This document shows, in pieces, positions 191 to 13,733 of a DNA stretch of 64,000 nt. Both the position numbers and the translations under genes were made by a program. The DNA lies in IMG/VR virus record IMGVR_UViG_3300047157_000146, one strand, 5' to 3'. Source of the stretch: an uncultured virus (IMG/VR IMGVR_UViG_3300047157_000146). Lineage: Duplodnaviria > Heunggongvirae > Uroviricota > Caudoviricetes. Under the pieces are notes generated by a model. That model did no database searches. It worked only from the letters and a program-made list of their open reading frames with translations, and was not told the origin of the DNA. Within the stretch, counting starts at the first letter, position 1; every line of letters starts with the position of its first letter.

Positions 191-1165
191 ATGCCTAAAG
201 ATGTGAATAAGAATACTGCCAGCATCGGTGACGCTGTTATCGAAACCGTTGGTGGAGTTATCAAATTCAAGAAAGATTTTGAGGCTTGGGAGAAAAAATG
301 CAGGGGTGCAAATTCCGGCATGAAGAAGGGTTCTTTATTGTACGCAGTTGAAAACCATGTCACTAGTCCTAGAAGGGGTTCTCCTAATGATGGAAATTCC
401 GGGGCACATACCATGCTTAGAAGAATTAGGAAGATGTTAGTTGACAGGGCTAATGGAATCTTTTACGAAGAAGATGCTGAAACTCTAGAAGCGATTGTTA
501 ATGACCTAGAAGGACTAAAAGACGATGCTAGTTTGAATCCTCAAAATATTGTATTTTCAATTCCTAAGAAGTTTAATGCTAAGACCGGCTCGTATGCTAG
601 AGGTGTAGAAATGGAAAAGGTCTACGGCCACTACCTTTCTACCTTCTACTCTAAGAAATATGGTACTGCCGATAGACAAAAAGATGGGTGGGTTAGTGAT
701 AAAGAAAACACCGCTACTCCGCCAATTTACCAAGCACTTTATGGCGGAAATTTAGTTCCCGTTGGATTGGTTGATGTTTTAAATAAAGCAATTGAAGATA
801 TTGACGACCAAAACTACATCGCTACGATTAGAACTTCTAAACCTGCCAAAACTCTCCAAAGCATTCCGGATTTTAAAACGAGATTGGGTCGTGCTATTAA
901 CTCGGCAAAAACCGAAGAGGGAGTAAGTACTTCTAAAGTTATGAGGCTAATGTCCGGTAAATCATTCAAGGTTCCACCTACAGGCAAGGCACAAAAGATG
1001 CTATCTAGATACATGAAAGTTCCCGACTTAGGAGGAACCATTACTGAATTCACAATCGAGTTGACTCCGGCTAAGACTCGTAAATTGATTAAAGATTACA
1101 TGGGTTCTAACATGAGAGTAAAGGTTAGTCCGATTATTAAAAGTTGGAAGGAAGTGTTGCTATGA
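191..1165 (+). CDS. Hypothetical protein (324 aa), ends in SWKEVLL motif
   Basis: Long ORF; C-terminus IIKSWKEVLL resembles the leader shared by downstream genes; stop overlaps next ATG (ATGA). Confidence 0.6.
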   Translation: MPKDVNKNTASIGDAVIETVGGVIKFKKDFEAWEKKCRGANSGMKKGSLLYAVENHVTSPRRGSPNDGNSGAHTMLRRIRKMLVDRANGIFYEEDAETLEAIVNDLEGLKDDASLNPQNIVFSIPKKFNAKTGSYARGVEMEKVYGHYLSTFYSKKYGTADRQKDGWVSDKENTATPPIYQALYGGNLVPVGLVDVLNKAIEDIDDQNYIATIRTSKPAKTLQSIPDFKTRLGRAINSAKTEEGVSTSKVMRLMSGKSFKVPPTGKAQKMLSRYMKVPDLGGTITEFTIELTPAKTRKLIKDYMGSNMRVKVSPIIKSWKEVLL

Positions 1166-1593
1166 CATGGAAAAGTATATTGAAAAAGGACAAAATAGAG
1201 AAAGCACCATTTGGTAGATTTAAAAGGGATAAAACTCCTGCTGAACCTAAACTTACTGGTAATCAACAGAATGCTATTGAACTTGCTAAACAAAGAATGC
1301 ATCATATAGTTACTCAATTTAAAAATGACCCTGAGTTTCAAAAAGCAGGAAAATTTGCTATTAAAGTAAATACTCAAGATATACCAAAAGGCACAGATGG
1401 AAGCGACGGATATGGAAAAAAGAGAGGGTTGGTATATGATTTGAACCATTATGAAGGTAAGTTTGATGCTAATTTTATCGCAACTCATGGCATTCCCGAA
1501 TTAGAAAAATTAGGCTTTAAAGTTGAAAGAATGGGAGATATGATTCAAGCCTCAAAAGGCGACTCTAATGCTCAAAGAAAATTTGGAATATAA
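1162..1593 (+). CDS. Hypothetical cassette protein with MTWKSILK leader
   Basis: ATG 1162 overlaps upstream TGA; shared leader motif. Confidence 0.65.
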   Translation: MTWKSILKKDKIEKAPFGRFKRDKTPAEPKLTGNQQNAIELAKQRMHHIVTQFKNDPEFQKAGKFAIKVNTQDIPKGTDGSDGYGKKRGLVYDLNHYEGKFDANFIATHGIPELEKLGFKVERMGDMIQASKGDSNAQRKFGI

Positions 1594-1594
1594 A

Positions 1595-1885
1595 AAGGTG
1601 AATAATATGACATGGAAAGACGAGATTAAGAAATCAGAAAAAATTGATTTTTCATTTTTAGAAAGAGAGAAAGGCCACGCTAAAAAGGAGTTTACCCGAA
1701 CTTTGCGTGATTGGGCAGATGCAATTGATAACGGATATAAAGATAAGTTGTTTGAACATGAATCATCAAAAGAGGCTATTACAATGGTTATGAGAGGTCT
1801 TAGATTAATACGGACAAAAAATAGACTTTTTTATGCTACCCTTGAGAGAGAGAAAACGGAAGGTGAATAATATGACTTGGGAAGA
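1595..1885 (+). repeat. Gene-junction direct repeat AAGGTGAATAATATGACWTGGRAAGA (1595-1620, 1860-1885)
   Basis: 24/26 identical by eye; TATGACATGGAAA also shared between 1161-1173 and 1606-1618. Confidence 0.8.
1607..1870 (+). CDS. Hypothetical cassette protein with MTWKDEIKK leader
   Basis: AGGTGA RBS upstream of ATG 1607; shared leader. Confidence 0.65.
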   Translation: MTWKDEIKKSEKIDFSFLEREKGHAKKEFTRTLRDWADAIDNGYKDKLFEHESSKEAITMVMRGLRLIRTKNRLFYATLEREKTEGE

Positions 1886-2117
1886 TATACTAAAAGAAAT
1901 GACTCTAGATGAAATAGAGGAAATCGTTGGAAAGACGGGAAGTTTAGATGAACTGATTGAAATGATTGAAAAGAAGTTCGCAGTGAAGACTAAGATGATT
2001 TCAAGTTCTTCCTCTTCTCCTATGATTGGATTCTCCATACCTATCTATGTTTCACTAGAGATGGTTGGAAATAAGACCGAAGAATTTGAAATTATTAGTA
2101 CAGGTGTGCAGAAATGA
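1872..2117 (+). CDS. Hypothetical cassette protein with MTWEDILK leader
   Basis: AGGTGA RBS, ATG 1872; shared leader. Confidence 0.65.
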   Translation: MTWEDILKEMTLDEIEEIVGKTGSLDELIEMIEKKFAVKTKMISSSSSSPMIGFSIPIYVSLEMVGNKTEEFEIISTGVQK

Positions 2118-2893
2118 GTTGGAAATATATACTAAAAAGAGTTGACTACAACGACTTAGATGATGGTAGTAAAAGCCGAATTGCACATGCCCTAACCGGA
2201 GATGAAGTATATTTTGAATTGACTGATTTATACGGGGATTTTCCTCTTTACGGTGTAGAATCTATGGATGATTTACCTAAAGGAATGGGTTTCCCTAAAC
2301 ACTTTAAATTATATTCCGAAGGTGATATGGAAATATCTGAAGAGCAAGGAGAATACCCATCTCTTTACACAAACATTAGCGTCTATGTTAAAAATCCTAA
2401 CGACAAAAAAGAATCATATTATTTGGGTCATTTTAAGGAAGAACAAAACATTGCAGATTTAGAGCATATTCTAAGAGATAATCAAGATTTGGCTACTCTT
2501 CAAGAACTAATGTTAGTTCCGGATTTCAAGTTTGCTTCATGGAAGAATACATTTATGGATGCAGACTACAACAAACTAGTTGCCTATCTAAAAGAAACTA
2601 ACAAATGGGAAAAGATTAGCCACATCGAAGATAAAATGATGAAACTTCCCAAAGTCAGTCACAGTAAAGAAGTTGATAACTGGCTAGAGGAAGCAGAAGA
2701 TTATGCTAGTCAAAAGTTTGAACAGTCTTATTCTAGAGATGATGAATCGTCTATAGGAACGGCTCAAGAGTTTTACAAACTTCTAGAATATTTGAGAACA
2801 AATAAGGAAACTTCGTGGAACGAAAGTGATTTGAAAAGAAAATTCCCTACGGCTATGTTGATTGTTTCGGAAACTTTAGGCGGACTACCATAA
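2114..2893 (+). CDS. Hypothetical acidic cassette protein with MSWKYILK leader
   Basis: 259-aa ORF, ATGA overlap, shared leader. Confidence 0.65.
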   Translation: MSWKYILKRVDYNDLDDGSKSRIAHALTGDEVYFELTDLYGDFPLYGVESMDDLPKGMGFPKHFKLYSEGDMEISEEQGEYPSLYTNISVYVKNPNDKKESYYLGHFKEEQNIADLEHILRDNQDLATLQELMLVPDFKFASWKNTFMDADYNKLVAYLKETNKWEKISHIEDKMMKLPKVSHSKEVDNWLEEAEDYASQKFEQSYSRDDESSIGTAQEFYKLLEYLRTNKETSWNESDLKRKFPTAMLIVSETLGGLP

Positions 2894-2903: not shown

Positions 2904-3567
2904 ATGAGAAGAAAGAGTTGTGCCTTTTGTCAACACAGTGATGTTGATTCCATGGAGGCCGACTTAGAATCCCTTACTATTACTCCCGATGAATTAGATG
3001 CAAGGAACAACTGGAGAAGCGGAACTGCGGCCCAACATCAAAGAAATCACATGGGAGAATATGTGCAACAGCAGTAATCCAAAGTGTGCAAGTTATGTGT
3101 AGACCCAATGAGGGAAGACACTATGAGAAGGCAATTACAAGGGTAATATCACAAGTGAGGTCATTTCTTCCGCTTGGACCTCTCTAAAACACAGGTGCAA
3201 CGCCACATGTTAAGCACCACTTTACAGCCCATTGGTACAGCAATCTGCGGCGGCTATGATAGCGAAAAAGGAAGTAAATGAGGTTGATTTGCTATCAAAT
3301 AACATTCAATTGCTAGATGATAAATTCACCGAGACTTGTTCATTAGATATGATTTAGATGCTAAGAGAGATTGATAGTCTTACTAAGTTCGCAAGAGAAG
3401 TTCGGGAGTCTTTGAAAGTACCTGATGGAGTTCAAAGGAAAACTTGTCCACAAGCGACAAGATACAATTATTGTCGCACAGATGCAGGTTGTTCAAGAAG
3501 TGTTAGCACAGAACAATCCGGAGATTTGGCTTGATATTAAAAGAAAATGCAGGAGAGATTACAATGA
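2904..3567 (+). CDS. Frameshifted CxxC/HTH-containing protein, possibly terminase small subunit (indels probably assembly errors)
   Basis: Starts MRRKSCAFCQH; continues across frames (SALDLSKTQVQRH; KGKLVHKRQDTIIVAQMQVVQEVLAQNNPEIWLDIK) and ends KMQERLQ*. TerS call is weak, from position and HTH-like character only. Confidence 0.4.
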
Positions 3568-3929
3568 GTTGGAAAAAAATAGTTAAAAGAAAAAGCAAAA
3601 AACTTAATGTCGAAGATAGTAATATTTTTAATAAGTTTGTAAAAGACTTAACAGATGGTTTAATTGATAGAGAATTACAAGACCATTTAAGCAGAACAAC
3701 TTCCGACGACCCGCAATATAAAAATCACGAAATTGCTCTCAAAGAAGTTTTGTATGATGATTTATCTGACAATATTGCAGACAGATTAGCAGACGCTATT
3801 GAAACAGTAGTTTTCAAAGAAGGAAGAATAGATTATGATGATAATGCCTCATCATCGGGCATACTCGTTTTAATTGAAGCAATAGATAAAAATGAGAAAG
3901 AATTAGAATCTAAAAATTTAGAATGGTGA
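3564..3929 (+). CDS. Cassette 1, hypothetical (MSWKKIVK leader)
   Basis: ATG inside repeat copy 1. Confidence 0.7.
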   Translation: MSWKKIVKRKSKKLNVEDSNIFNKFVKDLTDGLIDRELQDHLSRTTSDDPQYKNHEIALKEVLYDDLSDNIADRLADAIETVVFKEGRIDYDDNASSSGILVLIEAIDKNEKELESKNLEW

Positions 3930-3942
3930 AGGAGAGATTACA

Positions 3943-4347
3943 ATGAGTTGGAAAAAAATATTGAAAGCATACAAATTCGGAGAGGACATTCCTTTTATTT
4001 ATGTCATTCCTGCCTTTCCCTTTGAAACAGGCGGAACTTTTGTTGATAAAGCAAAAGACCCTAAATATCAAGAACAGTATGAGTTTCTTAAAGAAACCTT
4101 TAAAATTACAGGAGAAGAAATGCTTGACATTGAAGGTGATTTAATGAGAGTGGCAACATTTGCTTTACACTTTGGAGAAAAGTATAAAGGAACATTTTGT
4201 ATGAAGCATAATTATGGCCCTATTGATACTTGGTATGATTGTGGAAAATGCTTAAAGGAATCTAAGAATGGTGAAAGAGATAGCATAGACTTAGAACACT
4301 CTAGGCTAACGGCTAAACAAGCATTTGATAAGTTTAGAACAAACTAG
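3943..4347 (+). CDS. Cassette 2, hypothetical with Cys cluster (C..CGKC) (MSWKKILK leader)
   Basis: ATG inside repeat copy 2. Confidence 0.7.
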   Translation: MSWKKILKAYKFGEDIPFIYVIPAFPFETGGTFVDKAKDPKYQEQYEFLKETFKITGEEMLDIEGDLMRVATFALHFGEKYKGTFCMKHNYGPIDTWYDCGKCLKESKNGERDSIDLEHSRLTAKQAFDKFRTN

Positions 4348-4358
4348 GAGAGATTACA

Positions 4359-4676
4359 ATGAGTTGGGAAGACATATTGAAAAATGCTTGGTATGTTAGA
4401 GATGGAGATGCCCCTTTGCACGACCATGTTCACGAACTACTTTTCTTTATGGCTTACAATGAAGACCCTAAATTAAAACAAGCAGGTGAGGCTTTATTGA
4501 ATAAATTTGATGAATACTATGAAAGGGTAGAGGATAAAGATAAGTTAAATGACCTTTACTCTCCCGAATTTTTTAGTTTTCAAAGCAACTTAAAGAAACT
4601 CGCAAAGGCAGTTACTTCAAAGATGGGATTAAGAGAACAGTATTTGCATTTGATTGAAGCAAAGAGATTGATGTAG
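4359..4676 (+). CDS. Cassette 3, hypothetical helical protein (MSWEDILK leader)
   Basis: ATG inside repeat copy 3. Confidence 0.7.
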   Translation: MSWEDILKNAWYVRDGDAPLHDHVHELLFFMAYNEDPKLKQAGEALLNKFDEYYERVEDKDKLNDLYSPEFFSFQSNLKKLAKAVTSKMGLREQYLHLIEAKRLM

Positions 4677-4687
4677 GAGAGATTACA

Positions 4688-4936
4688 ATGAGTTGGAAAG
4701 ACCTAGTTAAGGGAGAGAAAGAATACTCATTCTATCTCGGACAAATTGAAAAGATAGAAAAAATGCTAGAAAGACTGTATGAAGATATAGAAAAATCCGC
4801 TATTGAAATGAATAAAAAAACAGGCTTACCAATAGAACAGGCAAGAAACATAATTAAAAATGTGCAAGAAGGCACTATTGATGAAATAGAAAAAACACTT
4901 GAAGAATTTAAACAAAAATTAGAAAGGTCATTCTAG
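4688..4936 (+). CDS. Cassette 4, coiled-coil hypothetical (MSWKDLVK leader)
   Basis: ATG inside repeat copy 4. Confidence 0.7.
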   Translation: MSWKDLVKGEKEYSFYLGQIEKIEKMLERLYEDIEKSAIEMNKKTGLPIEQARNIIKNVQEGTIDEIEKTLEEFKQKLERSF

Positions 4937-4947
4937 GAGAGATTATA

Positions 4948-5208
4948 ATGAGTTGGGAAGATATTATTAAAAGGCCAAGTGAAGAGGAAGTGAGAAGTGA
5001 TGCTCAACGAAACGCAGATGAATTAAACAAGCCCGTTTACTTATTTCAAAGTGCATTAAATAGTCAGTGGTTGTTTTATGACGAGCCGCCTAAAGACAAT
5101 ATTAAATATGAAACAATTTATCCTACTAATCCTACTGTTAGAATAGAAGAGGGTGCAAAATTCTCAGAGGCGTTTCGAGAAACGGAAGGAATGGACACTA
5201 GTAAGTAA
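4948..5208 (+). CDS. Cassette 5, hypothetical (MSWEDIIK leader)
   Basis: ATG inside repeat copy 5. Confidence 0.7.
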   Translation: MSWEDIIKRPSEEEVRSDAQRNADELNKPVYLFQSALNSQWLFYDEPPKDNIKYETIYPTNPTVRIEEGAKFSEAFRETEGMDTSK

Positions 5209-5222
5209 AAGGAGAGGTTACA

Positions 5223-5705
5223 ATTAGTTGGCAAAGTATTTTGAAAGCCCCATATTCTGTTGGTGGAACAGAAACCTCTTTTTTATATCAAGGAAGCCAA
5301 TTAGAAGAAGATACAGGTTATTGGACTCCTTATTATAATCAAGCAGTTGTTTATGCAGTTTATGGTTCAGAAGCAAATATAAAAAAACCCATGAAAAATG
5401 TGGGAAAACCTACCATAAAACAAGCAAAAGAAACTAAAGAAAATATTGATTTGAAAGATGACCCCGAAAAAACAATGGCGGGTATGGGTAAGTTAGATTA
5501 TACTTTAGTTTCCGATAAAGTAGTCAAAGACGCAATAGATGAATTAATTGGAGAATTAGAGTTTATTGGTTACGATGATTTTGAAAGTAATGGAGTTAAT
5601 TATGCTTCACCCGAACAGTTTAATCAAATAATGGAAACTACTGCACAGTTCTATTCAAACGAAGAAAGAATACAACACGCTAAGAAAATGCAGGAGAGAA
5701 TATAA
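5223..5705 (+). CDS. Cassette 6, hypothetical; leader (I)SWQSILK with ATT in place of ATG
   Basis: Repeat copy 6 reads ATT AGT TGG CAA AGT ATT TTG AAA, in frame with ORF 5241..5705. Confidence 0.55.
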   Translation: MSWQSILKAPYSVGGTETSFLYQGSQLEEDTGYWTPYYNQAVVYAVYGSEANIKKPMKNVGKPTIKQAKETKENIDLKDDPEKTMAGMGKLDYTLVSDKVVKDAIDELIGELEFIGYDDFESNGVNYASPEQFNQIMETTAQFYSNEERIQHAKKMQERI

Positions 5706-5866
5706 TGAGTTGGAAAAGTGTTCTCAAAAGACAAACCAAACTCCCTAAAGAACTTACAGAAGGCGCTACCGTATCTACAATTCCAGCAGAAGAGTGGGGA
5801 AATGAACCCAAGAAAACCCCACCGTCGAAGGAAGATGCTACAGCCCGTCAGAAAAAGTTAGATTGA
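5705..5866 (+). CDS. Cassette 7, 53-aa hypothetical (MSWKSVLKRQTKL...), absent from ORF track
   Basis: Hand-translated from ATG in repeat copy 7 to TGA 5864-5866. Confidence 0.6.
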   Translation: MSWKSVLKRQTKLPKELTEGATVSTIPAEEWGNEPKKTPPSKEDATARQKKLD

Positions 5867-5915: not shown

Positions 5916-7868
5916 ATGACAATAAAAAAACAGGCATCTCATCGTAGCGAAAACATTGCCGGTGTTCCTTATACCCCTCGTACACTATTTAGAGCCTTAG
6001 CAAGAGAAGGTGGAGAGGAGCCTTTGATTGCCCATCTACAACAAAAGGGACAAAGAGGGCCTAGTGGAGATGCTAGTAAAATAATGGATGCTTTGAAAAC
6101 CATTACAATTAGTGGTGGTGTTCGTTCATCGGTTAGTGATGCCCTCAAAAATCAAGAAGAATTTACTAGCGTCATTGAACCCCTTGCTGAAAAACTAGGA
6201 ATGAAACCTACCAAACTAAGGCGAATTTTGACTCCAAAAATAGCCATGCTATTTCAAGCACAACCGAAGGCTGAAAGCAATGCTGAGTTCTTCAAAAGAA
6301 TTACCAATGATGGTCTTAATGAAGAAGACATAGACAAGTTAATGACTTATGTTTTGAATGATGATGCTCAAAACCTATCAAGAGAACTAGGCAAGGCAAA
6401 CATAGACAAGTATGTTTTAATTGAAAGCATTGAAGACTATTATGGTTCTTTAAGGAATTCTAAACCACAAAGCGATGAAGAGTTTGAATCCTCGGCACAA
6501 GTTTCTTGGTTAAGATACAAAGCAACCTACAGTGTTGGGAAAGATAGACCTAAAGGTAATCCGAAAGGTGCAGGTAAAAGAACTGGATTTATTCTATTGG
6601 AAGAATTAGACGATAATGATAGTGTCAAGGAAAGAGAGGCTCAAGTTAGAGAGGCTATAGAAGAAAACCAAGACTTGACAGACTTCGATAGAGTAATTTA
6701 CGAAATAGAATATCCTCCTGTTTATGAAAAAATGTTTGGAAAGAGAGATATAAAAATGACTTTAGAAAATGACCAAGAATTAGCCCCTAAGTCTGGCCTT
6801 ACTAGGTCGGATGTAGTAATTTACATAGAAAGAATATCTTCTATGAAAAAGAAGTCCCTCCTCCTACCTAAGTTGGGAGTTCATTCGGTAGTCTCTACTT
6901 TTTTCAGTAGCAATACAATCAATCCAGTCCTACTAAAACTACTAAACTATGAAGGTACAGAAGTAGTTGATTCTATTTTAAATTCTATAATTCAATCTTA
7001 TTATATTCCAAATATTGACATTGCAGAAATATTTCAAAATTTAGATTTCAAGGGGAGAAAGGAATGGGTAAAAATAGAAGCAGAAGATGATAGAATCGAA
7101 AATTATTATCTTAGAGATGATTTGTGGAATGTAATAGAACCCCTAATTACCGGAGAATGGAACAACATAGAAAATTGGACTAATAAATTAACCGAAGAAA
7201 TTAGAGGGGATATAGAAGATTCTATAGAAGACCTATCGAGCGACTTTATGGATAAAGTCGATATAAGGGGGGGTCTTGTCAAAATTCCAAGAAAGGATGG
7301 AAACGCCACAATTGACTTCGTTGAAATCATAGAAGAAAATATTCATACTATAGAATCCCTGAATTCTTTGCCTTCTTCAAGTTCAGTAAAAAATCCAGTG
7401 GTGGCTAGAACATTAGAGAGTCCCATAAACAGGCAAATTTTCGCTCTATTTGCTGAAAAAATTGAAGGCAAGGGTGATGTAGATGCCAAGGGAGTATTTG
7501 AATTTGATGAGTCTGCTATGGATGCTGCTTACGGCGGGAGATTAGAACCTGCTAAAGGGTTGGCTATACTAACTAATTTTTCTTATTTATTAGATGATTC
7601 TATAGAACCTCTCGCTATCAATTTAGATAAGTCAATAGATAAATACATCGAAACTGCTGACCGAAAACTGCTAACTGAAATTGAAGGCGATATTGAAAAC
7701 TTTAGGATAAACTTAGGAAAGTCATTACAAAGAGTCATTAATACCTTAGTAGAAGGAGTAGAAAATAAACTACAAGATATATCTTCTAGATTTAGATTTT
7801 ATGTCAATGAAGTTGGACAGGAATTATATGATGAATTGACTGACAGTGGATTAATGGAGGAAGCATAA
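5916..7868 (+). CDS. Large acidic hypothetical protein (650 aa), possible internal virion protein
   Basis: Long ORF, no recognised motif, in head-gene region. Confidence 0.55.
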   Translation: MTIKKQASHRSENIAGVPYTPRTLFRALAREGGEEPLIAHLQQKGQRGPSGDASKIMDALKTITISGGVRSSVSDALKNQEEFTSVIEPLAEKLGMKPTKLRRILTPKIAMLFQAQPKAESNAEFFKRITNDGLNEEDIDKLMTYVLNDDAQNLSRELGKANIDKYVLIESIEDYYGSLRNSKPQSDEEFESSAQVSWLRYKATYSVGKDRPKGNPKGAGKRTGFILLEELDDNDSVKEREAQVREAIEENQDLTDFDRVIYEIEYPPVYEKMFGKRDIKMTLENDQELAPKSGLTRSDVVIYIERISSMKKKSLLLPKLGVHSVVSTFFSSNTINPVLLKLLNYEGTEVVDSILNSIIQSYYIPNIDIAEIFQNLDFKGRKEWVKIEAEDDRIENYYLRDDLWNVIEPLITGEWNNIENWTNKLTEEIRGDIEDSIEDLSSDFMDKVDIRGGLVKIPRKDGNATIDFVEIIEENIHTIESLNSLPSSSSVKNPVVARTLESPINRQIFALFAEKIEGKGDVDAKGVFEFDESAMDAAYGGRLEPAKGLAILTNFSYLLDDSIEPLAINLDKSIDKYIETADRKLLTEIEGDIENFRINLGKSLQRVINTLVEGVENKLQDISSRFRFYVNEVGQELYDELTDSGLMEEA

Positions 7869-10318
7869 TGGGATTTAAAGAAGACTTAGAGCAAGCATTT
7901 GCGAATAAAAAAAATACTGCTTTTCAAAAGGCAAATCTAAATCCTTCTCCTAGGAAAGTCATAAAAAGAATAGTGAATAATCTGTTTAATGAGTTAAAAA
8001 TAAAATATAGAGAAGAAGATTCCGTTGCCGGAGCAACTGAGATGAAAGATGCTGAAAGAGCAGTATTTAGGTCTGCATACAAAGAATACAAGCAATTGGA
8101 GCAACAAAACTATGATGATTTAGTTCCAGAAATTGTAACGCAAGGTAAAGATAGAGGTAAAGTTGTTGATGAAGAAGTTAGGGAAGAAGATGAGAACCTT
8201 CGCATCAATAAAATATTATCTAGAATATTTAGAAACATTACAATTAGAGGAAAGGCCATTACTTTAGAGGTTCTCAATGAAACTTTTTCCAAGGAAGATA
8301 TTTCCATAAAAAATTCATATCGAGGAAGAGAACCATCTTATTCTTCGGATAGAGTTAGAGAAAAAATAACAGAGGACGATACCTTAGATTTAGAAAAGGT
8401 AATGCCACTTTTAGAAAAAGTATTTGAAGGGATAGACAGGTATTATGATGAAGGTTCAGTTGACGGAGATATAATTTCAATAGACATAAAAGATGATGTG
8501 GCTTCATTTATTGGAAACGAACCTTACATCAAACCAAGCAAAAGAAAAGCAATTTATTCTTCTTGGAAATCGGTAGCGGCAAAGCACAAAGATGTGTATG
8601 AATCAGTTAAGGCACTAAAAAAGGCACTTGGTTCTAATTCTAAATCTGCAAAACTAAACTCAGCAAATGAAATTTTTAACAACAGTGGTCAATATGTTGT
8701 AGAATTTAAATCGGCTAAAGTAAAAGAACAAAAGGCGAGTTCTGCAATTTTTACTCTAATTGAAAGGCTAGAGGCTGGTAAAATAGCAATAGAAGAAGAG
8801 GGTATTGGTGTTGATGGAGATTCTAATTACTACACTGAGATTCTTGAAACTGAGGTTCTTGATTCAAGAACTGTTAAAGAAATCAATAACTTAGCATCAA
8901 AAAACATGGACCCATTGGGATACAGTTATTTGACTAAATACACTCATGGTATTCTAACCGATGCAACTGAATTAGATGAACTATCGGAACTAGCCGAGGC
9001 CGCCAAAGAGTTATATGGATTTGATTCCGAACAAGAAGTACAAGAATTACAGAATGCGTTGGATAAAATGGGACAAATAAAGCCGGTTTCGGGCAAGTAT
9101 TTTTTACCTATACAGATTACTTTGGACGGAAATATTTCTAGGCTATTTGGACCTACATTAGAGGCAGAAGAAATAATAGAAGATGAAATGACAGGTAATA
9201 TTATCACTAGAGAAAAAAATCCTACAAAAATTTCCGGAGTAATAAAGTCACTACTTTCAGCACTAGAAGATATTTTGATGGAACAGAAAATGACTACTGG
9301 ACAGACTGTTGTGGCCTCAAGAGGAGGACAATCGGGTATTACGGGCAAAAGAGGCTATGTAGATGATAGTTACATATCTTCATACCCTTCTGTAAAGGGT
9401 AAACCTAAAAAATTCGATGCTGAGATAGAAGGTAAAATTAAGGATGTCCTATCTGCTCTAGATGAATATTTATACAAACCTCTTCTAAATCCGGCTATGA
9501 CATTAGACTTAGATTTTAGAATTAAAGGTTTTTCTTCCTTCAAATCTATTAGAACTATGAGTTCTAGTGATTTTTCTAGAGCATACAACACACTAACTAA
9601 CAACGCCAACAGTAGAAGAGGTCGCTTGTTTAGAAATGACGATTTAAAAAACATTAGAGGCTTTTTAAAATCCATCAATACTCCTAATATAGATGTCAAT
9701 AATGTAATAGAAGAGGCTAATAAATTGACTTTCACAATAAAGAGGTTGTTTAGAGATAGACAAGTAATGAAACAATACAAAGAAGAAATGGCGGCATTCA
9801 TAGGTATTTTAAATCTTAGAAGCGACAAACAAACTAGAGAGATGAAGTTTCAAGGAATTACCATACCCTCTACTACAGAAGAAGCAATGGGAGATGAAAC
9901 TAGACCGTCTAGGGCTAGAATAGAAGCAACTAGCCTTACAGTTATGGCCACACTTAAGGAGTTTTTATTAGATGAAGCAAACCAAACTCAAATAAGTTCC
10001 AAAGGTTCAGTGACTGCTAAGGAAATTAAAACGATATTGAATGAATTAAGAAAGTCCGATATGGAAGAAAAAATCTTGGAGATACATGACTCTCTTAGAA
10101 TACTCAAGGGCTTGCCTGTTTATTATGGGCAGGGTTCTATATCTTCCATTGATGATATGGATTCAATCATTACCTCTTCTAGAGAAAAGTTCAACCTAGA
10201 TTTAACCTCGATGGATGTTGTAAAGATGGTTGAAGAGGTGGATTCCTTCTCTAATATTTCATCGAATGTTGGCGTTTCCGAAGAAGTAGTTTATTTTGTC
10301 AAGGCTAATTTTAGGTGA
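7868..10318 (+). CDS. Large charged hypothetical protein (816 aa) with small C-terminal HTH-like domain
   Basis: Long ORF; C-terminal SFSNISSNVGVSEEVVYFVKANFR is HTH-like. Confidence 0.55.
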   Translation: MGFKEDLEQAFANKKNTAFQKANLNPSPRKVIKRIVNNLFNELKIKYREEDSVAGATEMKDAERAVFRSAYKEYKQLEQQNYDDLVPEIVTQGKDRGKVVDEEVREEDENLRINKILSRIFRNITIRGKAITLEVLNETFSKEDISIKNSYRGREPSYSSDRVREKITEDDTLDLEKVMPLLEKVFEGIDRYYDEGSVDGDIISIDIKDDVASFIGNEPYIKPSKRKAIYSSWKSVAAKHKDVYESVKALKKALGSNSKSAKLNSANEIFNNSGQYVVEFKSAKVKEQKASSAIFTLIERLEAGKIAIEEEGIGVDGDSNYYTEILETEVLDSRTVKEINNLASKNMDPLGYSYLTKYTHGILTDATELDELSELAEAAKELYGFDSEQEVQELQNALDKMGQIKPVSGKYFLPIQITLDGNISRLFGPTLEAEEIIEDEMTGNIITREKNPTKISGVIKSLLSALEDILMEQKMTTGQTVVASRGGQSGITGKRGYVDDSYISSYPSVKGKPKKFDAEIEGKIKDVLSALDEYLYKPLLNPAMTLDLDFRIKGFSSFKSIRTMSSSDFSRAYNTLTNNANSRRGRLFRNDDLKNIRGFLKSINTPNIDVNNVIEEANKLTFTIKRLFRDRQVMKQYKEEMAAFIGILNLRSDKQTREMKFQGITIPSTTEEAMGDETRPSRARIEATSLTVMATLKEFLLDEANQTQISSKGSVTAKEIKTILNELRKSDMEEKILEIHDSLRILKGLPVYYGQGSISSIDDMDSIITSSREKFNLDLTSMDVVKMVEEVDSFSNISSNVGVSEEVVYFVKANFR

Positions 10319-10323: not shown

Positions 10324-10677
10324 ATGAGTTGGAAAGAGATATTAAAGTTTGAAACTAAAAAAACTCTACTACAACGATATGAAGATTTAAAAATAGTAAT
10401 TATTGAAGGAATTGAAAAATTCGGTGGGACTTTTGGAAGTGAAGAAGAACCAAAAACTATAGCAGGTAGGCTCGCCTCGATTAAAAAAATACTAGATGAA
10501 GAAGATTATGAGGGGACAAAAGATGAATTATTTTCCCAAATGTATAAGCATATTTCAAAATTAGAAGATAAATTTTATTATTGGTCCATTGATGAGAGTA
10601 TTGACCTTAGACAGTCGCTAGCCAATTTATTTTTGGCGTATAAAAGAAAAATTATCTTCATAAAAGAACAGGAATGA
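10324..10677 (+). CDS. Hypothetical with MSWKEILK leader
   Basis: AGGTGA RBS, ATG 10324, shared leader. Confidence 0.65.
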   Translation: MSWKEILKFETKKTLLQRYEDLKIVIIEGIEKFGGTFGSEEEPKTIAGRLASIKKILDEEDYEGTKDELFSQMYKHISKLEDKFYYWSIDESIDLRQSLANLFLAYKRKIIFIKEQE

Positions 10678-12107
10678 TTGATTTTATGGAAATAAATAGT
10701 CTAAACTTAGAACGACAAATGGACTTAGAATTATCTAAGAATTCATTTCCTTATTTCTTTGAAAATGTTCTAGGTTGGGATTTCGCAAAGCACCAACAAG
10801 AATGGCTTGAGTTAATGGGGCAAACCCAAAGAACAGTAATCATTTGTAGTCGGGGTCACGGAAAGTCTGTCTTCATGCACTCATGGGTTGTTTGGAATTT
10901 AATATTTAGACCACCCCCATATCAAATGCTTTACATTTCATCTAACCAAAAGCAGACAATGGTTCACATGAGGGACATTGACAAGGTATTCAATAACCCT
11001 ACAATTAAGCATTTTAAACCTGCTAAGGGTTGGGCTATTGGGAATATTACCCTCACTAATGGTAATCAAATTCTTGAGCGTTCTGTTGGTTCACAGATTC
11101 GTGGTCTTCACCCTCAAGAGATTATTATTGACGACCCTTTGAAAGAGTTTAGTTTAACCGCAATCCAAAAGGTTACTGATTGGTTTTATGGTGACATGAT
11201 TCCTACTCTTCATCACTCCGCTTCTCTTCGAGTTATTGGAACCCCTTTTAGTTACACAGATATTTACACTCAACTAGAAGAGAACGAAGCCTACACAGTT
11301 AGAAAATACCCCTGTTTTAACTCTCTTAATGAACCCCTTTGGCCTAACCGTTGGGACTATGATGCTCTCATGGCTAGGAAGGCAGAAATAGGTTCTCTTA
11401 AATTCACAAGAGAATATCTTTGTGTTCCAGTATCTACAGGTACTTCCCTATTCAATCCTGAATATCTAGAGAGGGCTAAGGATAAAAATTTGGTGTTGAA
11501 GCCCACTCGTAGAGAGGGATACAAATACTATGTCGGTATTGACCCCGCTATTTCTACAGATGGCGACTACAATGTAATCACGGTATTAGAAGTAGATGAG
11601 AACGATAACAAAAATGTTGTTTATGTTGACAGGGCCAAGAATGTAGAATTTAGAGATAACTTACAGAAGGTTAGACTCATAGGAAAAATATTCCAACCCG
11701 AAGTAATTCTGTTTGAAACCAATGTATTCGCTAAATCATTTACGCAGGAACTTAGAAATATTTCCGATTTAAATGTCCATGATTTTAATACTACTAGAAA
11801 GAAGAAGCAAGATATTATTTTGAATCTACAGATGAACTTTGAGAATGAAAAGATACATCTACCTTATGCTAATGAAGAAAGTAGAAGAGTTACTTCTGCT
11901 TTAATTGAAGAACTTTCTATGTTTTCTATTACCTCCAAGGGTAAGTTTGAGGGAGTTGGAGCGCACGACGATATGGTAATGAGTTTAGCATTGGCTAATG
12001 CTGCTACTAAGACCATCAGTGAAAACTTCTTATTGTTAGATGATTTGGGGATATTTGATGCGCCTATGAATAATAGGGGCATGGGTATAATGGGATTAAA
12101 CTTTTGA
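10674..12107 (+). CDS. terL: Terminase large subunit
   Basis: Walker A SRGHGKS, Walker B IIIDD, coupling motif GTP, nuclease GIDPA and HDDMVMS. Confidence 0.95.
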   Translation: MIDFMEINSLNLERQMDLELSKNSFPYFFENVLGWDFAKHQQEWLELMGQTQRTVIICSRGHGKSVFMHSWVVWNLIFRPPPYQMLYISSNQKQTMVHMRDIDKVFNNPTIKHFKPAKGWAIGNITLTNGNQILERSVGSQIRGLHPQEIIIDDPLKEFSLTAIQKVTDWFYGDMIPTLHHSASLRVIGTPFSYTDIYTQLEENEAYTVRKYPCFNSLNEPLWPNRWDYDALMARKAEIGSLKFTREYLCVPVSTGTSLFNPEYLERAKDKNLVLKPTRREGYKYYVGIDPAISTDGDYNVITVLEVDENDNKNVVYVDRAKNVEFRDNLQKVRLIGKIFQPEVILFETNVFAKSFTQELRNISDLNVHDFNTTRKKKQDIILNLQMNFENEKIHLPYANEESRRVTSALIEELSMFSITSKGKFEGVGAHDDMVMSLALANAATKTISENFLLLDDLGIFDAPMNNRGMGIMGLNF

Positions 12108-12116
12108 GGGAAAATT

Positions 12117-13733
12117 ATGCCAACACCGGACGAACTGAGAGAGGCTAGTACTAGATTAGAACAAGTCGCCGTTTTAGAAGAAGAAGCGGAGAAGGATTTA
12201 GAGGAGGCTAAGAACTTACTAGGCGATGAGATTGCTCTTAGTCTATCGAATGAATTTTCTATTTTCTCAGAACACGAATTGGTTTCTAAAATTTCTACAG
12301 AATTCAAACTCAACGCTTCTCAAGCAAAAAAGCACATTGAATCATTTCCTAAGAAACAGATGTATTATGGAGAAGAAGTTCCAGATATAGTTAAGACTCT
12401 AAGAAAACAGCGTAGGAGTCTAAAGGGAGAATCTAGAGATAGAATGACCAAGAGTATAGATGCTATAATTGATGGATACTCCGAACATATTACAAAATGT
12501 GTCAAGAGTATTTATTGGTTAAATCCATATCAACAACCTTTTATGAAAATGAAGTTTGATGAGAATGACCTTCTAAAGTTACACAGTATGAAAGAAGCAT
12601 CTCAAAGAAGGAAAGTCATCGACTCAATATGCAAATATTGGGAAGCAGAATTAGATTTGAAAGATACTAGTTATGGAAAGCAATACTCATTGCTATCTAA
12701 AGAAATGAATTTGGCTAAGAGGGAGTTTAGGAAGCACATCAAAGAGGTATCATCTTCTTCTCTTAAGAAATCAATTAAGGAAGAAACTAGAGAGTATATC
12801 GTAAAGCAAGTCAAAGATAATCAAGGAATATCTGCGAGGGAACTACATGATAGGATGCCTTCTAAATTATACGATAGAAATTCATGGCACTCTATTTCTA
12901 AGATGGCTAAGTCTTTAGAAGTCACTTCCGTTTCGGGAAGATACTTCTCTTTAGATTCGGAAATAAAAAAGAATGTTTGGGCTTATACTGCCGCATTTAT
13001 TGACTCGGATGGCTACATTACTATGGATAGAAATCATAACCCTAGAGTTGGACTAGTAGCCACAGGAGATAGAGGTAAGGCGTTTATGACTGAAATACAC
13101 AAGGCATTGGGAGGTATTGGTAAATTACACTTAGACCAAAAATCTCCACAAGACACACGACCAGTCAATAGACTAAACTTCTATTCTCAAAGTGATGTTA
13201 CAGAATTATTAACCAAGTGTTTGCCTCACTTTAGAATGAAGAAGGGGAATGCTAATCTTCTATTGGAACTTATTAGAATGAAGAAATCTTACAAGAAAGC
13301 AGAATGGTACAAAACCCGTTGTAATGAAATTTTCAAGTTAATGAAATGGGAGAATCACAAAGACCATGTGGGTTTTGATTTTGCTAAGGAAGGCATCTAT
13401 GTAGACGACATTTCAAAATACCAAGACAATTGTAAAATGTCTGTTATGGATGAAATGGAAAACATTGGTGGAATCATTGCTAAGAAAGAATTTGGAGATA
13501 CTTCATTCAAAGTCTATTATAACAAGGTTAAACGCATATTAAAACAGACTACTATGGACAAGGAAGACGAGGACATTATCATGTCTTTTTTAGATGCTGG
13601 TATGAAAGACGAAGAAAGCAGTGAAGACGAAATGACAATGATTAGTTCTGGTTTTGCTAAAAACAAAATTGAAGAAATTTTGACTAAGTATGGCAAAAAC
13701 GAAAAGCAACTATTTAGAAGAGAGAATGCTTAG
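12117..13733 (+). CDS. Protein with LAGLIDADG endonuclease-like domain and long N-terminal helical/wHTH region
   Basis: YTAAFIDSDGYI motif, then typical LPHFRMKK..A..LLE segment; ISARELHDRM wHTH-like. Confidence 0.7.
   Translation: MPTPDELREASTRLEQVAVLEEEAEKDLEEAKNLLGDEIALSLSNEFSIFSEHELVSKISTEFKLNASQAKKHIESFPKKQMYYGEEVPDIVKTLRKQRRSLKGESRDRMTKSIDAIIDGYSEHITKCVKSIYWLNPYQQPFMKMKFDENDLLKLHSMKEASQRRKVIDSICKYWEAELDLKDTSYGKQYSLLSKEMNLAKREFRKHIKEVSSSSLKKSIKEETREYIVKQVKDNQGISARELHDRMPSKLYDRNSWHSISKMAKSLEVTSVSGRYFSLDSEIKKNVWAYTAAFIDSDGYITMDRNHNPRVGLVATGDRGKAFMTEIHKALGGIGKLHLDQKSPQDTRPVNRLNFYSQSDVTELLTKCLPHFRMKKGNANLLLELIRMKKSYKKAEWYKTRCNEIFKLMKWENHKDHVGFDFAKEGIYVDDISKYQDNCKMSVMDEMENIGGIIAKKEFGDTSFKVYYNKVKRILKQTTMDKEDEDIIMSFLDAGMKDEESSEDEMTMISSGFAKNKIEEILTKYGKNEKQLFRRENA

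What the first reader, a model, noticed from the sequence alone, without database searches (positions are those of the whole stretch)
3541..5866. Integron-like gene-cassette array with polarised repeat decay, anchored on the 3' end of a core gene
Seen: seven copies of AGGAGAGATTACAATGAGTTGG, 260-482 bp apart, each followed by exactly one gene. Copy 1 is the coding 3' end of the upstream gene (KMQERLQ*). Copies 1-4 are identical; copies 5-7 have 1, 2 and 2 mismatches. Copies 1 and 7 share a longer 36-nt block (3541-3576 vs 5682-5717, 34/36), so cassette 6 also ends KKMQERI*. I see no palindromic attC structure and no integrase in the window. Inference: genes are inserted one at a time at the anchor junction, each event duplicating RBS, start and tag. 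New genes would be immediately expressed and tagged, and older copies pushed distally, as in CRISPR or integron polarity.
Basis: partly seen in the sequence, partly recalled or inferred. Interest (0 to 1): 0.88.

Follow-up and report, generated by a model that had tools for sequence, protein, structure and literature searches.

The report
Tagged gene-cassette array in archaeal virus
A marine archaeal virus carries a row of small, unrelated genes that all begin with the same ribosome-binding site and the same eight-residue protein tag, which lets related viruses swap these genes whole and probably sends their products to one common destination, possibly the virus head.

Summary
The 22-mer occurs 7 times (0, 0, 0, 0, 1, 2 and 2 mismatches; 0 expected), and one gene follows each copy.

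The window is a magrovirus-like tailed archaeal virus. The repeat is a Shine-Dalgarno-like site, a spacer, and ATG AGT TGG. That is the start of a peptide tag, M-[S/T/N]-W-x-x-[I/V]-[L/I/V]-K.

About 20 window genes carry the tag, all on the + strand and none in the replication module. In related viral contigs it sits on 468 ORFs in 210 sequence clusters.

The locus lies between a conserved 217-aa "anchor" gene, whose coding end …KMQERLQ* is the master copy of the repeat, and two large genes. It is hypervariable: 41 different arrays in 52 loci. The closest relatives carry only cassettes 3 and 7. The window's extra cassettes sit in two blocks bounded exactly by repeats.

- **Not an integron:** I found no integrase, no attC-like structure and no polarity.
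- **Best reading:** cassettes move by homologous recombination at a shared start module, as at T4 PeSL sites and the T-even internal-protein locus.
- **Tag function:** the prohead protease ends in M-S-W-S-D-I-H-K in 110 of 120 homologs, which hints at capsid targeting. This is unproven.

The parts
191..1165 (+). Conserved 324-aa protein (p324) upstream of the tagged genes. Its flexible C-terminal tail ends ...KSWKEVLL*, a tag-like motif.
   Evidence: AF2 gives pLDDT 86.4 and pTM 0.79, with tail residues 318-324 below 50. No fold match. A C-terminal [S/M]-W-x-x-[ILV]-[LVM] motif is present in 21 of 23 distinct homologs.
1162..2893 (+). Four further tagged genes: 1162-1593, 1607-1870, 1872-2117 and 2114-2893. 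They start MTWKSILK, MTWKDEIK, MTWEDILK and MSWKYILK.
   Evidence: Their content varies among relatives. Contigs of two runs join 2112 to 2903, skipping gene 2114-2893 exactly.
2904..3565 (+). Anchor gene, multiply frameshifted in this window. Intact homologs are 217-235 aa, start MRRKSCAFCQHSD... and end ...IWLDIKKKMQERLQ*, with TGA overlapping the next ATG.
   Evidence: Alignment with L067, L068 and L043. 43 distinct intact homologs. AF2 pLDDT 68, helical, with only weak HTH-type matches. No Pfam family.
3551..3572 (+). Repeat copy 1 (0 mismatches). It is the anchor's 3' end plus the start of cassette 1.
3564..3929 (+). Cassette 1, 121 aa, MSWKKIVK...
   Evidence: One weak relative among the fetched loci (L057). 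Absent from L067, L068 and L069.
3930..3951 (+). Repeat copy 2 (0 mismatches)
3943..4347 (+). Cassette 2, 134 aa, MSWKKILK...
   Evidence: Only 4 protein clusters in the 5.8-billion-protein collection (78-92% identity), all starting with the motif: MSWKDILK twice, MIWKNILK and MKWEDILK (position 2 is S, I or K). One ends ...DQERIQ, so it reads through the junction module.
4346..4367 (+). Repeat copy 3 (0 mismatches)
   Evidence: Homology with 6 loci starts at exactly 4346.
4359..4676 (+). Cassette 3, 105 aa. Shared with the closest relatives.
   Evidence: 81-97% aa identity in 5 other distinct sequences.
4675..4696 (+). Repeat copy 4 (0 mismatches)
4688..4936 (+). Cassette 4, 82 aa
   Evidence: 85% aa identity to a gene in L027, where it is also followed by a cassette-5 relative.
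4935..4956 (+). Repeat copy 5 (1 mismatch)
   Evidence: L027 has a perfect copy at the same junction.
4948..5208 (+). Cassette 5, 86 aa
5210..5231 (+). Repeat copy 6 (2 mismatches, including ATG to ATT)
   Evidence: L046 has a perfect copy in front of a 96% identical cassette. The ATT is also present in a contig of run X2 (piece 5127-5354, 0 differences).
5223..5705 (+). Cassette 6, 160 aa if read from ATT (154 aa from TTG at 5241). Ends ...HAKKMQERI*.
   Evidence: 84-94% identical relatives in L005, L006, L009, L010 and L060, with other neighbours. The L005 copy ends KKMQERLT*.
5692..5713 (+). Repeat copy 7 (2 mismatches, which lie in the coding end of cassette 6)
5705..5866 (+). Cassette 7, 53 aa. 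Shared with the closest relatives.
5916..10318 (+). Two large conserved genes (650 and 816 aa) that close the array. No family match.
10324..19715 (+). Further tagged genes among the terminase and portal genes: 10324-10677, 13830-14066, 14041-14313 (tag after 9 residues), 14315-14716, 14713-15111, 15112-15471 and 19362-19715 (MWERILK).
23837..23860 (+). M-S-W-S-D-I-H-K near the C-terminus of the prohead protease (gene 22673-23881). It matches the tag at 6 of 8 positions.
   Evidence: 110 of 120 homologs. Peptidase_S78, E 1.9e-10.
27924..28328 (+). Tagged gene in the structural module (MWQDILK)
32596..33102 (+). Tagged gene in the structural module (MWKKILK)
55111..56040 (-). PD-(D/E)XK nuclease, a candidate part of the virus's own recombination machinery
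   Evidence: Pfam PDDEXK_1, E 4e-15. A role in cassette exchange is inferred.
60592..61380 (-). AAA_24-like ATPase (weak match, below the Pfam cut-off). Possibly the RadA-like ATPase reported for magroviruses.
   Evidence: E 6e-5, 23.4 bits against a cut-off of 27. Passage in PMC5434244.

Best explanation
The window is a magrovirus-like tailed virus of marine archaea. Between a conserved 217-aa gene (the anchor) and two large conserved genes lies a hypervariable array of small, unrelated accessory genes.

Every cassette starts with the same 25-36-nt start module: a Shine-Dalgarno-like site, a fixed spacer, ATG, and the codons of an N-terminal peptide tag, M-S-W-x-x-I-L-K. In the array the upstream half of the module is a copy of the anchor's coding 3' end.

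The module does two things.

1. It is the only sequence shared by neighbouring cassettes. Homologous recombination between co-infecting or sister genomes at any two modules therefore adds, deletes or swaps whole, ready-to-express genes. The exchange pattern is shown here; the enzymology is inferred, probably the virus's own nuclease and RadA-like functions.
2. It gives every product the same short amphipathic N-terminal peptide, which is under selection as a peptide. The most likely role of this tag is to send the products to a common site, most plausibly the inside of the procapsid, so that they travel with the DNA into the next host. That would resemble the capsid targeting sequence of T4 internal proteins. 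This second step is inferred and was not tested.

My odds: cassette shuffling at the start modules about 0.8; the tag as a functional peptide signal about 0.75; capsid targeting in particular about 0.4.
For: Identity of the virus:
- Terminase, portal, S78 protease, HK97-type capsid protein, tail tube, split PolB, RFC, ERCC4 and an ATP-dependent ligase inside the structural module.
- The capsid protein's named relatives are haloarchaeal and methanogen tailed viruses.
- A ligase in the structural module and a split DNA polymerase are features reported for magroviruses (passages of PMC5434244).

The tag:
- 15 strict and about 20 loose N-terminal occurrences in the window, all on the + strand, against 0 in real genes of the - strand.
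- The motif W-x-[DEN]-[IVL]-x-[KRL] occurs at N-termini 9 times against 0.026 expected.
- There are 7-14 tagged starts per genome in 5 of 5 relatives. All lie on one strand within 15-20 kb, and the reversed control pattern gives 0.

Selection acts on the peptide. Among 348 unique tagged starts:
- codon 7 uses TTA 67, TTG 64, CTA 57, CTT 22 and CTC 20, plus Ile codons;
- codon 8 is AAA 253 and AAG 83, near the background ratio;
- W is kept in 345 of 348.

Cassettes are unrelated to one another:
- No pair among the 20 tagged window proteins is similar beyond the tag (best E 0.015).
- 210 clusters, 109 of them singletons.
- 2 of 143 cluster representatives have a Pfam hit.

Shuffling:
- L067, L068 and L069 carry only cassettes 3 and 7.
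- Homology of L068 to the window runs 2903-3588, 4346-4699 and from 5688 onward.
- 14 of 16 cassette-level BLAST matches start within -4 to +2 nt of a repeat. The other 2 are cut by a locus end.
- There are 41 distinct arrays in 52 loci, with the same cassette families at different positions and beside different neighbours.
- Metagenome contigs of two runs join 2112 to 2903 at the shared AATGAG of two start modules.

Hint at capsid targeting:
- The prohead protease carries M-[S/D]-W-[S/G]-D-I-H-K in its C-terminal tail in 110 of 120 homologs.
- p324 has a tag-like motif on a low-confidence C-terminal tail in 21 of 23 homologs.
- All tagged genes lie in or beside the head and tail gene block.
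Against: - No recombination event was observed directly. Most read-level joints at the repeats have only 21-37 matching letters on one side and come from contigs of mixed relatives, so they may only show the repeat in other contexts.
- Breakpoints at gene boundaries are also what selection against broken genes would leave behind.
- The loci were fetched with the exact 22-mer, so they are biased towards having perfect copies.
- The 5' part of the module also shows constraint at the nucleotide level. Ser2 is AGT in 207 cases against 13 TCT or TCA (background AGT 25%). Ile6 is ATA in 173 against 89 ATT (background ATA 28%). Part of the conservation may therefore serve translation or reflect common descent.
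- For capsid targeting there is no proteomic, structural or binding evidence. The tag matches the protease tail at only 6 of 8 residues, with His where the tag has Leu.
- About 20 tagged proteins per genome, some over 600 aa in relatives, is a lot of cargo.
- That the C-terminal part of the HK97 protease targets it to the capsid is recalled from Duda et al. 2013. I saw only the title, in a reference list.
- The planned MCP-cassette co-fold could not be run, so binding of the tag to the capsid protein is untested.
Confidence: 0.55

Rival explanations
1. Integron-like system. A dedicated site-specific recombinase inserts cassettes one at a time at the anchor junction, so the newest cassettes sit next to the anchor and repeats decay with distance.
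For: - The array is anchored on the 3' end of a conserved gene.
- The array-specific RBS and spacer equals that coding end.
- The slot directly after the anchor is very variable among relatives.
- Many copies carry extra anchor-derived bases (ATGC) upstream, even where these are non-coding.
Against: - No integrase or resolvase family among 62 window ORFs.
- PF00589 and PF00239 match 0 of 5 complete relatives, while the control genomes respond.
- No attC-like inverted repeats and no shared junction structure.
- Relative to the closest relatives, insertions lie at two places, not only at the anchor.
- Repeat mismatches are not graded by age.
Confidence: 0.05
2. The conserved module is purely a translation-initiation element that gives high or coupled expression in a polycistronic mRNA. 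On this view the peptide is incidental.
For: - Strong nucleotide conservation from -13 to +9.
- A after ATG in 92% of copies, which allows ATGA stop-start overlaps.
- AGT and ATA codon bias well above background.
- Junction RNAs are unstructured, which suits initiation.
Against: - Free synonymous variation at codons 7 and 8 while hydrophobic-hydrophobic-Lys is kept.
- The same motif occurs at the C-terminal ends of the protease (110 of 120) and of p324 (21 of 23), where initiation plays no part.
- Tagged genes outside the array use different RBS sequences but the same peptide.
Confidence: 0.15
3. The tag is a short linear motif that brings all these proteins to some other hub. Candidates are a host factor, the membrane (amphipathic helix), a chaperone, or a protease that times their removal.
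For: - W3, I6 and L7 would lie on one face of a short helix.
- The same residue pattern starts frog dermaseptins: 10 of the 11 full-text hits for WKDILK are papers on amphibian-skin or antimicrobial peptides. That these are membrane-binding amphipathic helices is recalled.
- The motif sits on flexible termini.
Against: - Eight residues make a weak membrane anchor.
- The strict restriction to the structural-gene block, and the presence of the motif on the prohead protease, point to assembly rather than to host take-over.
- No hub was identified.
Confidence: 0.2
4. The cassettes are old tandem duplicates of one gene. They have diverged beyond recognition except at the N-terminus.
For: All share the first 8 residues and the upstream sequence. 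Many are small and probably helical.
Against: - No pairwise similarity beyond the tag among 20 window proteins.
- Lengths range from 53 to 259 aa.
- Individual cassettes are 80-97% conserved between viruses, while their neighbours differ completely. This is exchange, not local divergence.
Confidence: 0.05

Closest known systems
PeSL-mediated modular shuffling in the hyperplastic regions of T4-type phages (Arbiol et al. 2010, PMC2839356, abstract read; Comeau et al. 2014, PMC4122927, search listing only). PeSL-like motifs were also proposed for the archaeal virus HGTV-1 (PMC3950731, passage).
   Same: - Short conserved motifs flank small ORFan genes in variable regions of a large tailed virus.
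- Insertions, deletions and replacements between relatives have their ends at the motifs.
- The motif also drives expression of the gene behind it.
   Different: - A PeSL is an early promoter plus a terminator stem-loop. Here the module is an RBS, a start codon and the first eight codons. There is no stem-loop.
- The module puts a common peptide on every product.
- Mini-circles, shown for PeSLs, were not seen here. The available runs are contigs, which could not show them.
The internal-protein (ipI) locus and capsid targeting sequence of T-even phages (Repoila et al. 1994, recalled and not held; review passage in PMC3012670). Also the N-terminal capsid targeting signal of P1 DarB (PMC9024508).
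   Same: - A polymorphic locus of otherwise unrelated small proteins that share only a short N-terminal leader.
- The genes sit with the head genes.
- The leader is a plausible site of exchange.
   Different: - The sequence of the tag is unrelated to the T4 CTS (recalled).
- Encapsidation, cleavage and injection are unproven here.
- Far more genes per genome carry the tag (about 20), and the hosts are archaea.
Integrons (intI, attI, attC cassettes)
   Same: A one-way array of promoterless single-gene cassettes next to a fixed anchor, with content varying between relatives.
   Different: No integrase, no attC structure and no insertion polarity.
Encapsulin cargo-loading peptides (recalled)
   Same: A short terminal peptide shared by unrelated cargo proteins could dock on the inner face of an HK97-fold shell.
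   Different: The sequence is different and usually C-terminal, and nothing was tested here. This is a functional analogy only.

Membership tests
Integron | Adjacent tyrosine recombinase (IntI) | tested here: not met
   No Phage_integrase hit in 62 window ORFs. PF00589 matches 0 of 5 complete relatives, while 14 of 14 control genomes respond. The window is only 64 kb of a genome of roughly 90 kb, so the rest of this genome is unseen.
Integron | attC sites: imperfect inverted repeats at cassette ends that fold as single strands | tested here: not met
   No inverted repeats beside the repeats. Six of 7 junctions fold no better than shuffles.
Integron | Insertion at attI, so that new cassettes lie proximal | tested here: not met
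   The extra cassettes lie both before cassette 3 and between cassettes 3 and 7, relative to L067, L068 and L069.
PeSL-type modular shuffling (T4-type hyperplastic regions) | Conserved short motif flanking ORFans, with indel ends at the motif between relatives | tested here: met
PeSL-type modular shuffling (T4-type hyperplastic regions) | Motif made of a promoter plus a terminator stem-loop | tested here: not met
   No stem-loop. The motif is an RBS plus start plus codons 1-8. Archaeal promoter elements were not searched for.
PeSL-type modular shuffling (T4-type hyperplastic regions) | Mini-circles formed by exchange between neighbouring motifs | not testable with these tools
   Only contigs of the runs could be laid.
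CTS-tagged internal proteins (T-even ip locus) | Diverse proteins that share only a short N-terminal leader, in a locus polymorphic between relatives | tested here: met
CTS-tagged internal proteins (T-even ip locus) | Leader directs the protein into the prohead and is cut off by the prohead protease | not testable with these tools
The only evidence is the tag-like motif on the protease tail.
Magroviruses (Magrovirales, viruses of Poseidoniales) | Tailed-virus structural module related to haloviruses, an archaeal-type replisome, an ATP-dependent ligase inside the structural module, and a split PolB in group B1 | tested here: met
   Features as described in PMC5434244 (passages). Relatives are 65-99 kb seawater viral contigs. 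No phylogeny was made, so the group assignment is approximate.

The most novel reading that the evidence does not exclude
Magroviruses may use one eight-residue N-terminal peptide as a universal cargo-loading signal. The same motif that ends the prohead protease would take any of more than 200 unrelated ORFan proteins into the procapsid, to be delivered with the DNA. Because the DNA encoding the signal, together with the RBS in front of it, is also the recombination site, new cargo genes are plug-and-play. One crossover would give a captured ORF its expression signal, its address label and its mobility. This would be a natural, evolvable protein-delivery system in one of the most abundant groups of archaeal viruses in the surface ocean.
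Probability: 0.3. Interest if true: 0.85.

Novelty: new variant of a known kind. Interest (0 to 1): 0.7.

Why it matters
Magroviruses are described as dominant archaeal viruses of the surface ocean (PMC5434244, passage). They have no cultured host, and most of their genes are unannotated.

This locus shows a simple rule behind part of that dark matter. About 40% of the + strand genes in the window share one start module and one peptide tag. The most variable part of the genome is built from such genes.

What it offers:
- A sequence handle, the tag, for finding the accessory gene pool of these viruses in any metagenome.
- A concrete, testable hypothesis for where the products go.
- An example in archaeal viruses of motif-mediated modular shuffling in which the motif lies inside the coding sequence.

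If the tag proves to be a capsid-loading signal, it could also be used to package foreign proteins.

In-print check: I found no description of the tag or the array in the main text of three magrovirus papers. A full-text search for the peptide strings also found none. Supplements were not examined.

Tried and rejected
- **Whole genome of the window:** none is held, so the rest of this genome could not be searched.
- **Earlier findings:** The search of earlier findings returned nothing.
- **Co-fold of the tag with the capsid protein:** Complex prediction with the MCP alignment A3 and the cassette-3 alignment A4 was not available.
- **Anchor protein:**
  - No Pfam family.
  - PHROG hits only at E of 0.004 or worse.
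  - PDB profile search best E 0.33.
  - Foldseek best E 1.3, to HTH regulators.
  - No similarity to HVTV-1 gp108 (E 4.4).
  - A small-terminase-like role, suggested by HTH plus coiled coil, remains a guess.
- **p324:** no Foldseek match. VIA-align best Z is 8.6, to generic helical proteins. The ESM Atlas gave no usable hit.
- **Known RNA families:** Rfam on 1-20000 gave 0 matches.
- **Promoter scan:** the bacterial promoter and terminator scan is not informative for an archaeal virus.
- **Laid contigs:**
  - Parts of the window without cover in the four runs are 2170-2403 and 4042-4275. Cover of 3106-3339 is very low.
  - Short-sided joints are 3575 to 4348, 3581 to 5209, 3588 to 4673, 1894 to 4943, 4971 to 1594 and 5179 to 4935. 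Their ends lie at repeats, but they may simply be relatives that share the repeat. I do not count them as evidence.
- **Crossovers inside the tag:** tag positions 4-5 differ more than gene bodies (0.16 against 0.077 per site over 25 clusters). This is driven by the cassette-3 family and by weak constraint at those positions, so it is inconclusive.
- **Papers not held:** Repoila 1994 and Duda 2013. A search for a description of the HK97 protease targeting signal found nothing useful.

Full report
**1. The observation**

The pattern AGGAGAGATTACAATGAGTTGG has exactly seven matches in the window at up to 3 mismatches. They start at 3551, 3930, 4346, 4675, 4935, 5210 and 5692, with 0, 0, 0, 0, 1, 2 and 2 mismatches. 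All are on the + strand, and none of 100 shuffles gave a match.

Each copy ends in ATG AGT TGG and opens one ORF, of 121, 134, 105, 82, 86, 160 and 53 aa. The longer block 3541-3576 against 5682-5717 is 34 of 36 identical.

- No inverted repeats lie beside the copies.
- Six of seven junction RNAs fold no better than shuffles, and the structures are not shared.
- No Rfam family matches in 1-20000.
- No integrase family appears among 62 ORFs.

**2. What the window is**

Pfam and PHROG hits give the following genes:

| Gene | Coordinates |
|---|---|
| Large terminase | 10674-12107 |
| Portal fragments | 15527-17174 |
| HK97-family prohead protease | 22673-23881 |
| Major capsid protein | 23892-25241 |
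| Tail tube | 34035-36278 |
| Tape-measure-like protein | 36907-38421 |
| ATP-dependent DNA ligase, inside the structural block | 20167-22665 |

On the other strand lie a PolB in two pieces, RFC, an ERCC4 nuclease and a PD-(D/E)XK nuclease.

The capsid protein's only named relatives in the phage collection are tailed viruses of Haloarcula, Methanomassiliicoccales and Methanofastidiosa (11 records, all below 25% identity). It has 840 relatives at E of 1e-20 or better in metagenomes, many from ocean surveys.

A ligase embedded in the structural module, split DNA polymerase genes (group B1), RFC and a RadA-like ATPase are the features described for magroviruses (PMC5434244, passages). I therefore treat the window as a magrovirus-like virus of marine group II archaea. 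I made no tree.

**3. The repeat is a start module with a peptide tag, and it is not limited to seven genes**

Tagged genes in the window:
- A strict search for [MLIV][ST]W..[ILVM][ILVM]K in six frames finds 15 places. All are on the + strand and at ORF starts. They include 1162, 1872, 2114, 10324, 13830, 14315, 14713 and 15112.
- A looser search adds 1607, 14068, 19362 (MWERILK), 27924 (MWQDILK) and 32596 (MWKKILK).
- In total, about 20 of roughly 48 + strand genes carry the tag, and none of 12 - strand genes.

Consensus of the module:
- The exact 22-mer occurs in 66 stretches on 57 IMG/VR contigs of 23-185 kb.
- In these loci plus the window I count 468 tagged ORFs. Overlapping loci are included.
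- Aligning 354 unique start contexts gives AGGAGaGATTAcA ATG A(G/C/A)T TGG aAA GAt AT(A/T) nTn AAA.
- Conservation runs from -13 to +23 and vanishes further upstream.
- These loci were found with the 22-mer, so they are biased towards having perfect copies.

Distribution in relatives:
- In five relatives, four of them 100% complete by CheckV, a degenerate tag pattern hits 7-14 times per genome.
- The hits are always on one strand, inside 15-20 kb around the terminase and portal genes.
- The reversed control pattern gives 0 hits.

**4. Peptide or nucleotide constraint?**

Both are present (348 unique starts).

Evidence for selection on the peptide:
- Trp3 is TGG in 345 of 348.
- Position 7 uses TTA 67, TTG 64, CTA 57, CTT 22, CTC 20, ATT 44, ATC 17 and ATA 16. 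That is any codon for a hydrophobic residue.
- Lys8 is AAA 253 and AAG 83, close to the background ratio of 67 to 33.

Evidence for constraint on the nucleotides, or for common descent of the 5' part:
- Ser2 is AGT 207 times against 13 TCT or TCA (background AGT 25%).
- Ile6 is ATA 173 against ATT 89 (background ATA 28%).
- The base after ATG is A in 92% of copies, which allows ATGA stop-start overlaps.

Tagged genes outside the array use other RBS sequences, such as AGGTGATTAAC and GGAGGTGAAAGGAA, but the same peptide.

**5. The anchor**

The region 2904-3565 is homologous to a 217-aa gene that is intact in relatives.
- There are 43 distinct intact sequences at 43-100% identity.
- They start MRRKSCAFCQHSD... 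and end ...IWLDIKKKMQERLQ*, or close variants of these.
- The stop codon TGA overlaps the next ATG.

In this window the gene carries many indels and stop codons between about 3060 and 3545. The frame that reads KKMQERLQ* is closed just upstream.

The array-specific sequence AGGAGAGATTACA is this coding end, CAG GAG AGA TTA CAA TGA, copied in front of the cassettes. This holds even where it is non-coding.

Conversely, some cassettes read into the module:
- Cassette 6 ends KKMQERI* here and KKMQERLT* in L005.
- One cassette-2 homolog ends DQERIQ.

The function of the anchor protein is unknown:
- It has two CxxC pairs, an HTH-like stretch and long helices (AF2 pLDDT 68).
- Fold matches are weak and only to HTH regulators.
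- No family was found.

**6. Relatives: gain, loss and replacement at the repeats**

The three loci that encode the closest relatives of the 650-aa protein (61-63% aa identity) show the order anchor, cassette 3, cassette 7, large gene. The window has cassettes 1-2 before cassette 3, and cassettes 4-6 between 3 and 7.

BLAST of L068 against the window matches 2903-3588, 4346-4699 and 5688-6757. The unmatched blocks are bounded by repeats 1 and 3, and by repeats 4 and 7.

Against all loci:
- 47 matches to the anchor end 16-60 nt after the start of repeat 1.
- 14 of 16 cassette-level matches begin within -4 to +2 nt of a repeat start.
- The other two are cut by a locus end.

The window's cassettes turn up elsewhere in other company:
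- Cassettes 4 and 5 lie together in L027.
- Cassette 6 occurs in L005, L006, L009, L010, L046 and L060, between unrelated genes.
- Cassette 3 sits behind three different neighbours.

A heuristic parse finds 58 loci with an anchor homolog, 52 of them with an array closed by an ORF of 450 aa or more. These 52 hold 41 different arrays of 1-10 cassettes. Some loci overlap on one contig.

The cassettes are not recognisable paralogs:
- No pair among 20 tagged window proteins is similar beyond the tag (best E 0.015).
- There are 210 clusters, 109 of them singletons.
- 2 of 143 cluster representatives have any Pfam hit at E of 1e-4 or better: one pentapeptide-repeat protein and one DUF5754.
- Cassette 2 has only four relatives among 5.8 billion protein clusters. 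All begin with the motif, though position 2 is S, I or K.

**7. Population data**

Twenty runs from 14 studies, labelled seawater, marine or viral metagenomes, hold part of 2800-6300. Contigs of four runs were laid on 1000-8000.
- Contigs of X1, X2 and X3 reproduce 4346-8000 with 0-1 differences. This includes the variant copies 5-7 and the ATT start of cassette 6, so these are not window-specific errors. X1 may be the source sample.
- Contigs of X2 and X5 join 2112 to 2903, with 48 and 119 letters on the shorter side. This removes gene 2114-2893 exactly, at the AATGAG shared by two start modules. It is the arrangement seen in L068.
- Many further joints and loose ends sit at repeats (4346, 3575-3588, 4935-4943, 5208-5209). 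Their sides are short, so I do not count them.
- Relatives in X2, X3 and X5 lack the extra bases that break the anchor frame in the window.

**8. Mechanism of exchange**

- No tyrosine or serine recombinase family is found in the window.
- None is found in 0 of 5 complete relatives, with positive controls.
- There is no attC-like element.
- Insertions are not confined to the anchor side.
- The mismatches of copies 5-7 are not an age series.

What remains is ordinary homologous recombination at 25-36-nt modules that every cassette shares. The virus encodes nucleases and, by the literature, a RadA-like ATPase. This is an inference from the pattern, not an observed event.

The closest precedent is PeSL-mediated shuffling in T4-type phages (PMC2839356, abstract). 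That mechanism has also been suggested for the archaeal virus HGTV-1 (PMC3950731, passage). The difference is that the motif here is translational and partly coding.

**9. What the tag may do**

The motif W-x-[DEN]-[IVL]-x-[KRL] occurs 15 times in 60 window proteins against 1.7 in shuffles. Nine are at N-termini (0.026 expected). Two lie within the last 25 residues (0.15 expected; the largest count in 500 shuffles was 2).

The two C-terminal cases are conserved proteins:
- **p324:** the motif K-S-W-x-[ED]-[ILV]-[LVM] sits on a tail with pLDDT below 50, in 21 of 23 homologs.
- **Prohead protease:** its tail reads ...A-[DE]-M-[SD]-W-[SG]-D-I-H-K-x-V-G-G-N-I* in 110 of the 120 best homologs. This equals the tag MSWKDILK at six of eight positions, including the Met-Ser.

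From memory (Duda, Oh and Hendrix 2013; only the title seen), the C-terminal part of the HK97 protease is what takes it into the procapsid.

Three further points fit a capsid-targeting role:
- The tagged genes are restricted to the structural block.
[quoted passage not shown] Taken together, this makes capsid targeting the best single guess, at about 0.4. Alternatives are listed under the rival explanations.

**10. Verdict**

The finding is real and more general than stated. It is not an integron. It is a recombinationally shuffled cassette array whose shared unit is a start module that also encodes a family-wide peptide tag.

In kind it is a new variant of known phage mechanisms: motif-mediated modular shuffling and leader-tagged internal proteins. 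I found no description of it for magroviruses in the main text of PMC5434244, PMC11706807 or PMC10160649, nor in a full-text search for the peptide strings. Supplements were not read.

Noticed in passing
window 15527-17174: The portal gene is broken into at least four frame segments (frames 2, 1, 3, 1, 3) relative to the intact 547-aa portal of L068, at 68-95% aa identity per segment. The anchor gene at 2904-3565 is similarly frameshifted. Neighbouring genes such as the terminase and the 538-aa protein are intact. This may be a defective genome or local assembly error. The laid contigs did not confirm the window's version of the anchor.
   Followed up: partly
L075 46300-49000 (halovirus HVTV-1, genes 159-172): A related archaeal tailed virus has its own array of about 14 tiny overlapping genes (36-77 aa). 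Their C-termini share ...F-W-D-x-R-[LM]..., encoded by a repeated junction TTCTGGGAC..GGAGG..ATGA that also holds the RBS and start of the next gene. Several carry CxxC near the N-terminus, so they may be paralogs. Junction-module arrays may be widespread in archaeal tailed viruses.
   Followed up: partly
window 56031-59757 (- strand): Family B DNA polymerase lies in two ORFs (590 aa and 308 aa), with about 1 kb between them (56957-57985). This matches the 'split DNAP genes' reported for magrovirus group B1. I did not examine what lies in the gap.
   Followed up: no
window 191-1165: p324 gives a confident AF2 model (pLDDT 86, pTM 0.79). It has no convincing match in the PDB by Foldseek or VIA-align (best Z 8.6, generic helices), so it may be a new fold.
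   Followed up: partly
window 40264-46761: A 2165-aa ORF in the tail region has no Pfam or PHROG family.
   Followed up: no
L062 9873-10637 (- strand): One tagged protein (254 aa) carries pentapeptide repeats (E 3e-11). This fold is known from DNA-mimic proteins (recalled), and is one of only 2 Pfam hits among 143 tagged cluster representatives.
   Followed up: no
window 2882-2905: The anchor gene's own start region, GGTGATTACAATGAGAAGA, shares GATTACAATGAG with the repeat. The anchor therefore also sits behind a start module, and the 2112-to-2903 joint seen in metagenome contigs lies in it.
   Followed up: partly
window 3564-3929: Cassette 1 has a sub-threshold Pfam match to Sp-CxC, a small protein of CxC ATPase-based DNA modification systems (E 3e-4, 21 bits against a cut-off of 27.5).
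   Followed up: no
window 12117-13733: A 538-aa gene directly after the terminase has a weak HNH-endonuclease PHROG match (E 9e-5). This recalls the nuclease genes inserted in magrovirus structural modules.
   Followed up: no
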